Below, in pieces: positions 5,886 to 14,381 of a stretch of 24,193 nt of DNA. The notes under the pieces were generated by a model. It was not told the DNA's origin and made no database searches. It worked only from the letters and a program-made list of their open reading frames with translations. The position numbers and the translations under genes were made by a program. Positions within the stretch are counted from its first letter, which is position 1, and every line of letters starts with the position of its first letter. Source of the stretch: Candidatus Micrarchaeota archaeon (GTDB lineage Archaea; Micrarchaeota; Micrarchaeia; Micrarchaeales; Micrarchaeaceae); assembly GCA_021812205.1 (NCBI GenBank), contig JAKAOJ010000001.1, forward strand, positions 1 through 24,193, written 5' to 3'.

Positions 5886-7184
5886 ATGGACTTGGGCGAA
5901 GGGCTAAGGCAGGCTTTGGCAAAGATATCGCGAGCCACGATTATAGACGCCAAGACAATTCGCGAGTTCAACAAGGAGCTTCAGAAGGCGATGCTGACCG
6001 CAGACGTGGAGGTGCCGCTGGTCTTCAGCCTGACGAAAAACATAGAGGAAAAAGCGCTTAAGAGCCGTCCGCCGGCCGGCCTGGCCCCAAGAGATTACAT
6101 AACAAACATAGTGTACGACGAACTGGTTAAGCTGGTCGGCAAGTCATATGAGCCAGAGCTGAAGAAGCAGCGGGTGCTCCTAATGGGCCTCTACGGCTCC
6201 GGCAAGACCACCACAGCTGCGAAGCTCGCCAAGTTCTACCAGGACAGAGGGCTTAGCGCGGGTGTCATATGCTGCGACGTGTCTAGGCCGGCAGCATACG
6301 AGCAGCTCGAGACGCTTGCGAAGCAGGCCAACGTTGCATTCTTCGGGATGAAGGGCGAGGTTGACGCAGCAAAGATAGCAAAGGCCGGCATGGAGGCGCT
6401 AAAGGACAAGCAGGTAGTCATCTGCGACACGAGCGGCAGAAACGCCTTGGATCCGGGCCTGATATCAGAGCTCAAGAGCGTCAACAAGGTGTTTGAGCCG
6501 GATGCGAAAATCCTCGTCGTCAGTGCTGACATAGGCCAGGTGGCCGGCAGACAGACCCGCGAATTCGATTCCGCAGTCAAGATAAGCGGGGTAATTGTAA
6601 CCAAGATGGACGGCTCGGGCAAGGGCGGCGGGGCGCTCAGCGCAGCCAATGCATCGCAGGCGCATGTCCTATTCATAGGCACAGGCGAGAAGATGAAGGA
6701 CATCGAGTCCTTCAACTCGGAGAAATTCATCGGCTCGCTTCTTGGAATACCGGATATAGGCTCGCTGGTTGAGCGCGTGCAGTCGGCCGTGGCGGAAGCC
6801 GGCATAAATCCCGAAGAGGTCGACATCGAGAAGTTCAACATGGACTCGTTCTACACGCAGCTGAAGGCGCTGAACAAGATGGGTCCGCTTAAGAATGTCC
6901 TCGGCATGATGGGCATGTCAGACATGCCCAAGGATGCCGTGGAGAAGAGCGAGAGCAAGTTAGCCAAGTACAAGATAATCATAGCATCTATGACGAAGAG
7001 CGAGCGGAACAACGAACGCCTCCTGCATGAGCACAGCCGCATAGCGCGCATAGCGAAGGGCAGCGGCACTTCTGAGCAGGATGTGCGTGAGCTAGTGTCA
7101 GATTTCAACAAGATGAAGAAGTCGTTCAACCTGATGAAGAACGACAGGAACATGAAGAAGTTCCTGGCAAAAATGGGTGCGTAA
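5886..7184 (+). CDS. srp54: Signal recognition particle protein SRP54
   Basis: NG-domain motifs GLYGSGKTTT, DTSGR, TKMDGSGKGGGALS and GTGE. Met-rich M domain with SRIARIAKGSG. Confidence 0.96.
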   Translation: MDLGEGLRQALAKISRATIIDAKTIREFNKELQKAMLTADVEVPLVFSLTKNIEEKALKSRPPAGLAPRDYITNIVYDELVKLVGKSYEPELKKQRVLLMGLYGSGKTTTAAKLAKFYQDRGLSAGVICCDVSRPAAYEQLETLAKQANVAFFGMKGEVDAAKIAKAGMEALKDKQVVICDTSGRNALDPGLISELKSVNKVFEPDAKILVVSADIGQVAGRQTREFDSAVKISGVIVTKMDGSGKGGGALSAANASQAHVLFIGTGEKMKDIESFNSEKFIGSLLGIPDIGSLVERVQSAVAEAGINPEEVDIEKFNMDSFYTQLKALNKMGPLKNVLGMMGMSDMPKDAVEKSESKLAKYKIIIASMTKSERNNERLLHEHSRIARIAKGSGTSEQDVRELVSDFNKMKKSFNLMKNDRNMKKFLAKMGA

Positions 7185-7185
7185 A

Positions 7186-7269
7186 AGAAGGATTGCAGAA
7201 TAGAAAAGGAAATGAGCAGAAAAGAGAAAGAGAAAAATAAAAACAAACCAACCGGGACTAACAAGCCCG
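7186..7269 (-). terminator. Putative terminator of the minus-strand peptide gene
   Basis: Right after the TAA on the minus strand is a hairpin CGGGCT-TGTT-AG(T)CCCG (7253-7269), then about 60 nt of T-rich sequence (TTTGTTTTTATTTTTCTCTTTCTCTTTT). Confidence 0.55.
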
Positions 7270-7270
7270 A

Positions 7271-7336
7271 TTATCTCTTTCTCTTCTTCGTCGAGCTTTT
7301 CTTCTTTGAGCTCTTCTTGCTCTTTTTCTTTGCCAT
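7271..7336 (-). CDS. 21-aa Lys/Ser-rich basic peptide MAKKKSKKSSKKKSSTKKRKR
   Basis: Read manually on the minus strand: ATG...TAA, 66 nt. SD-like GTGAGG upstream, TTTATATA box about 40 nt upstream, hairpin and T-tract downstream. Confidence 0.7.
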   Translation of the reverse strand: MAKKKSKKSSKKKSSTKKRKR

Positions 7337-7377
7337 TTTCCTCACTTTGGTAACATTTTTAGTGTTATAACGGCAAG

Positions 7378-7385
7378 TATATAAA
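7378..7385 (-). promoter_or_regulatory. TATA box for the basic peptide gene
   Basis: TTTATATA on the minus strand, a consensus archaeal TATA box, placed to give a short leader that contains the SD. Confidence 0.6.
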
Positions 7386-7471: not shown

Positions 7472-8575
7472 ATGGCCGACAAGGATGCGCTCGAATCAAG
7501 GCTTGAGGAGCTTGAGGAGGAGCTTTCGCGCACGAAAGACAACAAAGCCACTAATAAGCATCTGGCTGCGCTTCGCTCAAAAGTTGCGCAGGCACGCCGC
7601 GACATAGTCAAGGCAAGCAGGCGCGTCCATGGGAAGGGCTTTTTCGTCAAAAAATCAGGTGATGCAACTGTCGCGCTAGTAGGCTTCCCGAGCGCTGGCA
7701 AATCTTCGCTGCTCAATGCGCTTACAAACTCAAACTCGAAGACCGCGCCGTACGCGTTCACTACCACAGGCATAATACCCGGCACGATGGTCTACCGTGA
7801 CGCCCACATACAGGTGCTCGACATGCCCGGCCTGATAGAGAACGCCCATTCTGGTTTGGGAGAAGGAACGAGCATAGTGGCGCAGATACGCGTGTCCGAC
7901 CTGATAGTTTTCGTGATAGACATAAACAACCCTCCGCAGCTGGACATGCTGCTTTCCGAGCTCAAATCCCTCAACGTCTACATAAACAAGAAGAAGCCCG
8001 AGGTGCAGGTGCGCGAGGTTGATGCCTACATAGGCCTGAGGTTTGAAGTAAACAAGTCCGGTCTGGACGAGCAGGATCTACGCACAATATTCACCGGCTT
8101 CGGAACGTATAATGCCGTGGTGCGCATATGGGGCAAGGTAGACGAAGACGAGCTGATAAGCCTGCTCGCCAACAGGTCCTGCTACATAAACGCAATAATA
8201 GCGCTAAACAAGATAGACACTGTAAGCGATTTCGAGACCATAGCCCATGAGATGGAGAGGCGCTATGCGATGACAGTGCTGCCCATAAGCGCGCTGCGCA
8301 AGTCAACCCTGGAGCAGCTGACGCGCAGCATCTACGCTAACTCTGGGTTAATCCGCGTCTACCTTAAGCCCAGGACAGGCAAGGAACGCTCCCCTGTCAC
8401 AGCCTACGCGGGCTTTACCGTAGGGGAGCTGGCTAAGCGTTTCCACACCGCGGTGGTGGACGAGCTGAAGTGCGCTTATGTCGACGGGCCAAGTGTCAAG
8501 TTCTCAAACCAGCGCGTAGGCGTAAACCACACGCTTAAGGACGGCGACACTGTTACATTCATAAAAGAGAAGTGA
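7472..8575 (+). CDS. DRG/Obg-family GTPase with C-terminal TGS domain
   Basis: N-terminal NKAT motif, G1 GFPSAGKS, G2 FTT, G3 DMPG, G4 NKID. TGS-like end QRVGVNHTLKDGDTV. Confidence 0.92.
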   Translation: MADKDALESRLEELEEELSRTKDNKATNKHLAALRSKVAQARRDIVKASRRVHGKGFFVKKSGDATVALVGFPSAGKSSLLNALTNSNSKTAPYAFTTTGIIPGTMVYRDAHIQVLDMPGLIENAHSGLGEGTSIVAQIRVSDLIVFVIDINNPPQLDMLLSELKSLNVYINKKKPEVQVREVDAYIGLRFEVNKSGLDEQDLRTIFTGFGTYNAVVRIWGKVDEDELISLLANRSCYINAIIALNKIDTVSDFETIAHEMERRYAMTVLPISALRKSTLEQLTRSIYANSGLIRVYLKPRTGKERSPVTAYAGFTVGELAKRFHTAVVDELKCAYVDGPSVKFSNQRVGVNHTLKDGDTVTFIKEK

Positions 8576-8688: not shown

Positions 8689-9093
8689 ATGTCTATAAAG
8701 TATTGGGAGTTCGAGGATGCACCTTTCAAGGAAAAGCTGCGCAACGTTAGCGCCAGAGAAATAGCGAAGCTGTTTTTCGACAACGAGACGGAGGCCTACA
8801 GGTTTGCTGCGCTGCTCTTGGAGGTCAAGAAGACCAAGAAGCTGAAGCTGAAGGATGTCCCCGGGACGATACCGATAGCCACGGCGAAGCGCTACCTGGA
8901 TTTTGCAGTGCAGCTCGGCCTCCTCAGCCACGAGGGCACGGTCTACGAGCTCACAGACAGGTTCAGCAGGCCGTTCAGGAACATAGCGTCGTATATAAAG
9001 GCGTGGATGGAAGCTCCCCCAAGTGAGGACTTGACGACAGAATTTCCAGCAGCGCGCATGGAGAAGCAGAAGAAGCGTGGCGGGCGGGTCTAG
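8689..9093 (+). CDS. Hypothetical protein, probable winged helix-turn-helix
   Basis: 134 aa. Segment IPIATAKRYLDFAVQLGLLSHEGTVYELT resembles a recognition helix plus wing. TATA boxes upstream and a T-rich tract downstream. Confidence 0.6.
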   Translation: MSIKYWEFEDAPFKEKLRNVSAREIAKLFFDNETEAYRFAALLLEVKKTKKLKLKDVPGTIPIATAKRYLDFAVQLGLLSHEGTVYELTDRFSRPFRNIASYIKAWMEAPPSEDLTTEFPAARMEKQKKRGGRV

Positions 9094-9145: not shown

Positions 9146-9258
9146 CGGGCCCGGCGGGATTTGAACCCGCGACCGTCAGCTTTCCCCGCGCTTCTTGACG
9201 AATTGTCAAAGAAGTCTCATAGAAGGCTGCTGCTCTGTCCAAGCTGAGCTACGGGCCC
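9146..9258 (-). tRNA. tRNA-Arg(UCU) with a 38-nt intron at position 37/38. CCA is not encoded.
   Basis: Acceptor stem GGGCCCG/CGGGCCC, D arm GCTC/GAGC, anticodon loop CT-TCT-A|A, T arm GCGGG-TTCAAAT-CCCGC. The intron forms a bulge-helix-bulge (CUUC:GGGG helix; UA^U and AA^A bulges) and an internal hairpin. The anticodon stem has a G27-A43 mismatch. Confidence 0.93.
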
Positions 9259-14267: not shown

Positions 14268-14381
14268 TCAGAGCTGTCCGACCCTGCGCTTCTGCGCCCT
14301 CTTCAATCGCTTGCGCCTCTTCTTCTTCCATTTCCAGCGCATGCGCCCTTTCTTCTTCCATTTTCTGGGTATGCTTCCCAA
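14268..14381 (-). CDS. rpl41e: Ribosomal protein eL41 (eS32), 37 aa
   Basis: Manual translation MGSIPRKWKKKGRMRWKWKKKRRKRLKRAQKRRVGQL contains the archaeal eL41 motif WKKKGRMRWKW. TTG start preceded by GGTGA. Confidence 0.88.
   Translation of the reverse strand: MGSIPRKWKKKGRMRWKWKKKRRKRLKRAQKRRVGQL

What the first reader, a model, noticed from the sequence alone, without database searches (positions are those of the whole stretch)
7186..7385. Unannotated 21-aa protamine/H1-tail-like peptide with a complete transcription unit
Seen on the minus strand: TATA box TTTATATA, SD-like GTGAGG, ORF MAKKKSKKSSKKKSSTKKRKR (13 of 21 residues K/R, 6 S/T, no acidic residue), then a hairpin and T-tract. 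It lies between srp54 and the DRG GTPase and is too short for gene callers. I do not recognise it as a known ribosomal protein. Inference: nucleic-acid-condensing micro-protein (Ser/Thr could be phosphorylation switches) or a lineage-specific ribosome/SRP-associated peptide.
Basis: partly seen in the sequence, partly recalled or inferred. Interest (0 to 1): 0.68.

Follow-up and report, generated by a model that had tools for sequence, protein, structure and literature searches.

The report
Conserved unannotated oligolysine micro-gene, Micrarchaeota
A 21-codon gene for an almost pure lysine peptide, missed by gene callers, sits between srp54 and a DRG GTPase gene and is conserved with its promoter, ribosome-binding site and terminator across an order of tiny DPANN archaea; it is very probably a real micro-protein, most likely a nucleic-acid-binding polycation, but no function has been tested.

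Summary
Window 7271-7336 (-) encodes MAKKKSKKSSKKKSSTKKRKR, preceded by TTTATATA and GTGAGG and followed by a hairpin and T-tracts.

It is not chance. A convergent MA(A)KK...K(K/R)KR micro-ORF of 11-37 codons follows srp54 in 31 of 41 species genomes of the order, and in about 70 of 99 distinct Micrarchaeota loci.

Shared features are an AAAGTGA-N2-AA-ATGGC start context, an upstream TTTAAATA-type box, a T5+ run after the stop in 62 of 64 loci, no acidic residue in 62 distinct peptides, and a C-terminal Arg in 55 of 62.

Differences between close pairs fall mainly on codon position 3 (19/14/37, p = 0.002). The plus-strand 52-aa ORF is not conserved.

It is not eL41: a separate eL41/eS32 gene lies at 14271-14381 (-). 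It matches no Pfam, NCBIfam or PDB entry, and none of the nine orthologous peptides looked up is in a 15-billion-protein collection.

Only composition and termini are conserved. Length varies, two lineages carry 61-65-aa H1-like versions, and one genus lacks it at this site. This favours a generic polycation over a fixed ribosomal component.

Expression evidence is ambiguous because the RNA contigs are unstranded. This scan has noted similar oligolysine micro-genes in other phyla.

The parts
7378..7385 (-). TATA box TTTATATA, 42-49 nt upstream of the ATG
   Evidence: TTTAAATA-type boxes lie at -58 to -40 in 49 of 64 orthologous loci.
7340..7345 (-). Shine-Dalgarno-like GTGAGG, 4 nt before the ATG
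   Evidence: The GTGA core at -9 to -6 is kept in 45-52 of 64 loci; consensus AAAGTGAnnAA-ATGGC.
7271..7336 (-). Micro-gene CDS: 21 codons plus TAA, peptide MAKKKSKKSSKKKSSTKKRKR
   Evidence: Orthologues occur in 31 of 41 species genomes of the order. Substitutions are biased to codon position 3, 19/14/37.
7253..7269 (-). Short GC hairpin directly after the stop codon
   Evidence: Not shown to be conserved; folding energy is not better than shuffles (z = -1.1).
7233..7247 (-). T-tract (two T5 runs), an archaeal-type terminator signal
   Evidence: A T5+ run lies within 60 nt of the stop in 62 of 64 loci, and the 60 nt after the stop average 56% T.
5886..7184 (+). Context: srp54, convergent with the micro-gene, 86 nt between the two stops
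   Evidence: Pfam SRP54, SRP_SPB and SRP54_N.
7472..8575 (+). Context: DRG-type GTPase, divergent from the micro-gene
   Evidence: Pfam MMR_HSR1, MMR_HSR1_Xtn and TGS.

Best explanation
Window 7271-7336 (-) is a real, independently transcribed and translated micro-gene of a Micrarchaeota (DPANN) archaeon. Its product is a 21-residue, acid-free oligolysine peptide, +13 by its K and R residues. Selection keeps the charge, the small-residue spacers (A/S/T/G), the MA- N-terminus and the -K(K/R)KR C-terminus, but not the exact sequence or length. The most likely mode of action is therefore electrostatic and not sequence-specific. The peptide would bind the phosphate backbone of DNA and/or RNA as a genetically encoded polycation, giving charge neutralisation and compaction, as H1 C-terminal tails, bacterial Hc1/Hc2/AlgP-type proteins, protamines or polyamines do. 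Shown here: the gene's existence, its conservation, its signals and its coding-type substitution pattern. Inferred: translation in vivo, nucleic-acid binding and the cellular target. My confidence that it is a genuine conserved coding gene is about 0.9. My confidence that it works as a generic nucleic-acid polycation is about 0.5. The figure given is for the whole statement.
For: The convergent micro-ORF after srp54 is found in 31 of 41 species genomes of the order (f1 22/25, f3 9/15) and in about 70 of 99 distinct loci. The start context AAAGTGAnnAA-ATGGC is conserved, with TATA boxes at -58 to -40. A T5+ terminator run follows the stop in 62 of 64 loci. The 62 distinct peptides have K 46%, R 10%, A 14%, S 12%, zero D/E and one aromatic residue, and 55 of 62 end in Arg. 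In 11 independent close pairs, 70 differences fall 19/14/37 on codon positions 1/2/3 (chi-square p = 0.0019); two pairs differ only synonymously. It is unique in the 406-kb genome. After srp54 it occurs in 0 of 37 genomes of other orders. Other MAKKK starts in the order belong to ordinary long proteins or, in one case, to a short ORF that is not Lys-rich. Length ranges from 11 to 37 aa, with 61-65-aa Lys/Ala/Pro/Ser-rich versions at the same site in L024 and L082. ESM-Atlas look-alikes are small 'histone-like'/HC2-type proteins, with scores below 0.9, so they are leads only. Non-basic residues recur at spacing i+4, 1.48 times expectation.
Against: There is no direct evidence of a minus-strand transcript or of the peptide. 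RNA-derived contigs over the orthologous locus of a Ca. Micrarchaeum strain are unstranded and can equally be read as the srp54 3' UTR. No binding assay exists. Low-complexity Lys-rich ORFs are open by composition in several frames. The peptide set was selected for K/R of at least 0.4, so part of the compositional uniformity is selection by me. The gene is missing at this site in 10 of 41 genomes, so it is dispensable or mobile.
Confidence: 0.5

Rival explanations
1. It is a lineage-specific ribosome-bound (or SRP-RNA-bound) micro-protein that fills an rRNA pocket, like eL41/eS32, bS22, bL37 or Thx.
For: It is tiny, polybasic and has strong expression signals. It lies between two translation-related genes, srp54 and a DRG GTPase. 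Newly found lineage-specific ribosomal proteins are typically such peptides (own knowledge; the eL41 extension in PMC7005279).
Against: The true eL41/eS32 of these genomes is a separate gene: window 14271-14381, PDB eS32/L41e at E = 7e-7. It is 78-100% identical across 39 of 41 genomes. The Lys peptide, by contrast, keeps only composition, varies from 11 to 37 aa, and is absent at the site in 10 of 41 genomes, including a whole genus. It has no PDB match.
Confidence: 0.2
2. The ORF is translated, but the act of translation is what matters. It would be a Lys-codon-rich sensor whose ribosome occupancy controls termination or read-through into antisense srp54.
For: It has 10 Lys and 3 Arg codons followed by a hairpin and T-tract. 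Read-through would produce RNA antisense to srp54. The 3' end of the ORF can pair with the U-tract.
Against: No co-directional gene lies downstream, either here or at the G006 locus; both are convergent. The fold is not better than shuffles, z = -1.1 and -1.5. A conserved C-terminal Arg and MA- start are not needed for a mere sensor. Distance to srp54 varies from 25 to 231 nt.
Confidence: 0.08
3. It is not a gene. The purine tract would be the antisense face of the T-rich srp54 terminator, and the ORF an accident of composition.
For: The ORF's antisense strand supplies T-tracts to the srp54 sense strand (T5 and T6 runs in L056). One RNA contig ends just after the T6 run. Purine tracts are stop-free in several frames.
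Against: A terminator needs no conserved ATG-GCN start, GTGA at -9 to -6, TATA box at about -45, in-frame stop after -KR, or third-position substitution bias. Other orders terminate srp54 without any such ORF, 0 of 37.
Confidence: 0.07
4. It is an exported or host-directed cationic peptide used in the symbiont-host interaction of Micrarchaeota with Thermoplasmatales.
For: Micrarchaeota are host-dependent (PMC8975820). Oligolysines are cell-penetrating and membrane-active in vitro (own knowledge).
Against: There is no signal peptide, no hydrophobic residues and no linked transporter gene. The composition lacks the amphipathicity typical of antimicrobial peptides.
Confidence: 0.05

Closest known systems
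Prokaryotic histone-H1-like lysine-rich proteins (chlamydial Hc1/Hc2, Pfam PF07382 HC2; Pseudomonas AlgP KPAA repeats; Bordetella BpH1) and the C-terminal tail of eukaryotic H1
   Same: Lys/Ala/Ser/Pro-rich, acid-free, low-complexity polycations. Composition is conserved while sequence and length drift. The 61-65-aa variants at the same locus (L024, L082) look like short versions of these. Atlas look-alikes include HC2-carrying clusters.
   Different: It is 3-10 times shorter (11-37 aa), archaeal, and a stand-alone micro-gene. It gives no HMM match to PF07382 or any Pfam family even at E of 10 or less. Most members have no regular pentapeptide repeat.
eL41 / eS32, the smallest polybasic ribosomal protein of archaea and eukaryotes
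   Same: About 25-37 aa, more than 55% K/R, usually unannotated in MAGs, own small transcription unit.
   Different: A bona fide eL41/eS32 is encoded separately at window 14271-14381 (-) and is highly sequence-conserved. The Lys peptide has no RMRWKW/KRLKR motif, is K-rich rather than R-rich, varies in length and is lost in some genomes.
Protamines / sperm nuclear basic proteins
   Same: A short, extremely basic peptide in which charge content rather than sequence is under selection. Inferred DNA charge neutralisation.
   Different: Protamines are Arg-rich, eukaryotic, germ-line-specific and often Cys-containing. Here the peptide is Lys-rich, archaeal and without Cys.
Lineage-specific tiny bacterial ribosomal proteins (bS22, bL37 of mycobacteria; Thx of Thermus)
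   Same: Size and charge, lineage restriction, overlooked by annotation.
   Different: Those have conserved sequences and defined rRNA pockets (own knowledge). Here only composition and termini are conserved.
Oligolysine micro-genes noted earlier in this scan (Iainarchaeum, Omnitrophota, Nitrospira, Parcubacteria)
   Same: An unannotated 10-40-codon Lys(/Ala)-rich ORF with its own promoter, RBS and terminator, conserved in position among relatives.
   Different: Different genomic neighbourhoods and phyla, and homology cannot be established for such low-complexity peptides. Those notes are unchecked AI notes and are not independent support.

Membership tests
Genuine protein-coding micro-gene | Start codon, stop codon and reading frame conserved in position across relatives | tested here: met
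   ATG-GCN (MA; MP in 4 loci) start and a stop after -K(K/R)KR in 64 loci (62 distinct peptides); found in 31 of 41 species genomes.
Genuine protein-coding micro-gene | Conserved translation and transcription signals (SD, TATA, terminator) | tested here: met
   GTGA at -9 to -6 in 45-52 of 64 loci, AA at -2/-1 in 55-59 of 64, TATA-like box at -58 to -40 in 49 of 64; T5+ run after the stop in 62 of 64.
Genuine protein-coding micro-gene | Substitution pattern of a coding frame (excess at codon position 3) | tested here: met
   19/14/37 differences at positions 1/2/3 in 11 independent pairs; chi-square p = 0.0019, binomial p = 0.0006. The sample is small (70 differences).
Genuine protein-coding micro-gene | Transcript of the correct strand | tested here: inconclusive
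   Unstranded RNA contigs cover the orthologous ORF in 2 of 4 runs and leave the promoter gap uncovered in the one run that informs on this. They can also be read as the srp54 3' UTR.
Genuine protein-coding micro-gene | Peptide detected | not testable with these tools
   Trypsin would cut the peptide into 1-4-residue pieces, so intact-mass or non-tryptic MS is needed.
eL41/eS32 (Pfam PF05162) | Sequence match to the family, and being the genome's eL41 orthologue | tested here: not met
   No Pfam or PDB match for the peptide. A separate eL41/eS32 lies at 14271-14381 (-) with PDB matches at E = 7e-7, and is present in 39 of 41 relatives.
HC2 / bacterial H1-like (Pfam PF07382) | HMM match | tested here: not met
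   No family at E of 10 or less for the 21-, 28-, 35-, 37- and 65-aa versions. Only compositional look-alikes in the Atlas, below 0.9.
HC2 / bacterial H1-like (Pfam PF07382) | DNA binding and compaction | not testable with these tools
   Needs EMSA or a condensation assay with synthetic peptide.
Leader peptide / attenuator | A co-directional regulated gene downstream of the small ORF | tested here: not met
   The next gene is convergent, both here (srp54) and at the G006 locus.
Structured small RNA | Rfam match, or a fold better than shuffles | tested here: not met
   No Rfam hit in the region; z = -1.1 and -1.5.

The most novel reading that the evidence does not exclude
The peptide would belong to a widespread, recurrently arising class of genetically encoded oligolysines in ultra-small prokaryotes. 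Such genes would be born de novo from the antisense strand of oligo-T terminators, since oligo-A reads as Lys codons. They would be retained as a protein-encoded substitute for polyamines, a bulk counter-ion for DNA, rRNA and tRNA in cells that mostly lack recognisable spermidine synthesis. Bona fide SpeE was found in 2 of 41 genomes and pyruvoyl ArgDC in 7 of 41.
Probability: 0.2. Interest if true: 0.8.

Novelty: new variant of a known kind. Interest (0 to 1): 0.6.

Why it matters
If the peptide is made, an order of DPANN archaea with genomes of 0.6-1.1 Mb spends a dedicated promoter, ribosome-binding site and terminator on an 11-37-residue oligolysine. No annotation pipeline, family database or protein collection consulted here contains it. 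That would add a new minimal kind of nucleoid- or RNA-associated protein to archaeal biology. It would also show that low-complexity micro-genes can be under selection for charge alone. It gives a concrete example of possible de novo gene birth from a terminator's antisense strand. Finally, it offers a testable candidate in a cultivable system, the Ca. Micrarchaeum harzensis A_DKE co-culture. Together with similar notes from other phyla in this scan, it points to a systematically overlooked class of genes.

Tried and rejected
1. Plus-strand 52-aa ORF (7212-7370). Only 12 of 64 loci have any ATG-started sense ORF over the region, and their sequences are unrelated. Rejected.

2. eL41 identity. 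PF05162 is too insensitive: 0 of 41 genomes, and the control rings only in M. jannaschii. An eL41-like ORF found in L010 then located the true eL41/eS32 in the window. Rejected.

3. aS21. It has zinc knuckles and is unrelated.

4. Protein search for the peptide in genomes that lack it at the site. The search finds nothing even in a positive control, because the query is low-complexity. It is not informative.

5. DNA pattern GTG-N4-AAATGGC-N4-AA. It recovers the G004 copy, but nothing Lys-rich in G006, G009, G035 or G036.

6. Whole-genome scan of G006 (818 kb fetched). One Lys/Arg-rich 31-aa ORF follows FEN1 and a 44-aa basic ORF. It is not conserved in 14 congeners. It may therefore be an independent or recent copy, and the genus seems to lack the gene at the srp54 site.

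7. Polyamine-substitute idea. Most genomes lack clear SpeE and ArgDC, but six genomes with ArgDC also keep the micro-gene, so there is no anticorrelation. Left as speculation.

8. RNA contigs. They are unstranded and ambiguous.

9. Structured-RNA reading. No Rfam hit and no significant fold.

10. Exact look-up of nine orthologous peptides and one eL41 in the 15-billion-protein collection. None is present.

11. Literature searches found no description of such archaeal oligolysine micro-genes.

Full report
OBSERVATION

The minus strand of the window reads as follows.
- TTTATATA at 7385-7378.
- GTGAGG at 7345-7340.
- ATG at 7336, then 21 codons, MAKKKSKKSSKKKSSTKKRKR, with TAA at 7273-7271.
- A short GC hairpin at 7269-7253, also picked up by the terminator scan.
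- Two T5 runs within 7247-7233.

The flanking genes are srp54 (5886-7184, +) and a DRG/Obg-type GTPase carrying MMR_HSR1, its extension and a TGS domain (7472-8575, +). The micro-ORF is convergent with srp54, with 86 nt between the two stops, and divergent from the GTPase gene.

ORGANISM

The genome is a 406-kb, 59%-complete MAG. Its relatives have genomes of 0.6-1.1 Mb. Record titles of related contigs name Candidatus Micrarchaeota, Micrarchaeales or Micrarchaeaceae, and include the cultured Ca. Micrarchaeum sp. A_DKE. DNA runs that hold the window come from mine-drainage, mine-tailings and sediment metagenomes.

IS IT MORE THAN CHANCE?

I fetched the srp54 locus from 40 species-representative relatives and from 80 named contigs.

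Distribution around srp54:
- A Lys-rich micro-ORF starting MA(A)KK and ending K(K/R)KR lies just downstream of srp54 in 31 of 41 genomes of the order: family f1 22/25, f2 0/1, f3 9/15. It is convergent with srp54 in 30 of them and co-directional in G039.
- It is present in about 70 of 99 distinct loci.
- In 37 genomes from other orders of the same class, nothing comparable follows srp54.
- In the window's own genome it is the only such ORF.
- Seventeen other ATGGCNAARAARAAR starts in genomes of the order belong to ordinary longer proteins or, in one case, to a short ORF that is not Lys-rich.

Aligned on the ATG, 64 loci share these signals:
- The context AAAGTGA-nn-AA-ATGGC. G, T, G and A at -9 to -6 occur in 52, 48, 48 and 45 of 64 loci, and A at -2 and -1 in 55 and 59.
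- A TTTAAATA-type box at -58 to -40 in 49 of 64.
- A run of at least five T within 60 nt after the stop in 62 of 64. The 60 nt after the stop average 56% T.

This is the anatomy of an archaeal transcription unit with a short leader.

CODING TEST

Purine tracts are stop-free by composition, so an open frame alone proves little. I therefore compared 11 non-overlapping pairs of close orthologues of equal length.
- The 70 nucleotide differences fall 19, 14 and 37 on codon positions 1, 2 and 3 (chi-square p = 0.0019; binomial p = 0.0006 for position 3).
- Two pairs (L003/L004, L021/L070) differ only synonymously.

WHAT IS CONSERVED

Features of the 62 distinct peptides:
- Length 11-37 aa, median 17.5.
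- Composition K 46%, R 10%, A 14%, S 12%, T 5%, G 4%.
- No Asp or Glu and a single aromatic residue.
- 55 of 62 end in Arg (KKR or RKR in 43).
- 58 of 62 start MA; the other four start MP.

I selected ORFs with K/R of at least 0.4, so the basic content is partly my filter. The total lack of acidic residues and the conserved termini are not.

Ser/Thr positions are not conserved, and 7 peptides have none. Non-basic residues recur at i+4, 1.48 times expectation, which hints weakly at a helix with one small-residue face. At the same site two lineages (L024, L082) carry 61-65-aa Lys/Ala/Pro/Ser-rich versions that resemble bacterial H1-like proteins.

WHAT IT IS NOT

- It matches no Pfam family (E of 10 or less), no NCBIfam model and no PDB chain.
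- None of nine orthologous peptides looked up is in the 15-billion-protein collection, although the ESM Atlas holds the 65-aa L024 sequence letter for letter.
- It is not eL41. A 37-aa ORF at 14271-14381 (-) matches archaeal eS32/L41e chains (E = 7e-7). That ORF is 78-100% identical in 39 of 41 genomes. PMC7005279 describes an N-terminal extension of archaeal eL41.
- There is no Rfam family here, and the predicted transcript folds no better than shuffles (z = -1.1 and -1.5).

DISPENSABILITY AND MOBILITY

In 13 distinct loci DRG abuts srp54, with no room for the micro-gene. I scanned the whole of one such genome, G006 (818 kb fetched). It has a single Lys/Arg-rich 31-aa ORF at another place, after FEN1 and a conserved 44-aa basic ORF, and again convergent with the next gene. 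That copy is not found in 14 congeners.

Family f9, in another order, has similar units elsewhere. Examples are MAKKKAKKKGKNR and MAKKKKKGKKKC, each with a TATA box and a GGTGA motif.

The gene therefore behaves as a non-essential element that is gained, lost and resized.

EXPRESSION

Four RNA libraries hold the orthologous locus of a Micrarchaeum strain, but only as unstranded assembler contigs.
- One run covers everything and may contain DNA.
- One has a contig running from srp54 to 7 nt inside the ORF's 5' end, with no coverage of the promoter gap. That contig ends just after a T6 run on the srp54 sense strand, so it could be an srp54 3' UTR.
- Two stop at a masked A-rich repeat.

This evidence is inconclusive.

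MECHANISM

A fixed rRNA pocket would constrain sequence and length, as it does for eL41 in these same genomes. Here only charge, small spacers and the termini are kept. This is the signature of H1 tails, protamines and bacterial Hc/AlgP-type proteins.

I therefore favour a non-sequence-specific nucleic-acid polycation (about 0.5). The alternatives are a ribosome- or SRP-RNA-bound peptide (0.2), a translation-dependent regulatory ORF (0.08), a non-coding terminator by-product (0.07) and an exported peptide (0.05).

The ORF's antisense strand supplies the T-tracts that end srp54, and the reverse also holds. This suggests, as inference only, that the gene arose from the antisense face of an oligo-T terminator.

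A polyamine-substitute role is conceivable. Clear SpeE was found in 2 of 41 genomes and pyruvoyl ArgDC in 7 of 41. There is no anticorrelation, however.

PRIOR NOTES

This scan has noted comparable oligolysine micro-genes before on other DNA: Iainarchaeum, Omnitrophota, Nitrospira and Parcubacteria. Those notes are unchecked and are not used as support. My literature searches found no published description.

VERDICT

This is a new, miniature variant of the lysine-rich polycation kind. Interest is 0.6.

Noticed in passing
window 14271-14381 (-): An unannotated 37-aa eL41/eS32 gene, apparently with a TTG start (GSIPRKWKKKGRMRWKWKKK...). It matches archaeal eS32/L41e PDB chains at E = 7e-7 and is 78-100% identical in 39 of 41 relatives. 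It is missed by Pfam PF05162, and the exact sequence of its L010 orthologue is absent from the large protein collection.
   Followed up: yes
G000 contig C46, L236:998-1117 (-); G006 L177:19289-19420 (+): A conserved 37-44-aa very basic ORF (pattern K-x-GK-x-YR...LKR..RR) lies downstream of the FEN1 gene (directly in G006; a 210-aa ORF intervenes in the window's genome). It is found in the window's genome and in most genomes of genus g4. It has no Pfam or PDB match and may be another unrecognised small ribosomal or nucleic-acid-binding protein.
   Followed up: partly
window 9146-9258 (-): An Rfam tRNA hit spans 113 nt (53 bits) where ARAGORN finds nothing. It is probably an intron-containing archaeal tRNA gene.
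   Followed up: no
L024:1260-1457 (+) and L082:2825-3010 (-): At the same position after srp54, two genomes carry 61-65-aa Lys/Ala/Pro/Ser-rich H1-like proteins instead of the micro-peptide. This suggests expansion of the same gene.
   Followed up: partly
L217 (G057) and L218 (G080), family f9, another order of the class: Similar 12-13-codon oligolysine ORFs with a TATA box and GGTGA occur at unrelated loci. The class is therefore broader than the order, and homology cannot be decided.
   Followed up: partly
L270 (G039:C16, about 3322): Here the micro-ORF (MAKKKGGKKKK) lies after srp54 but on the same strand, unlike the convergent arrangement elsewhere.
   Followed up: no
window 8689-9093 (+): A 134-aa ORF after the GTPase gene has no Pfam match. 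A similar protein directly follows srp54 in G035 (L030).
   Followed up: no
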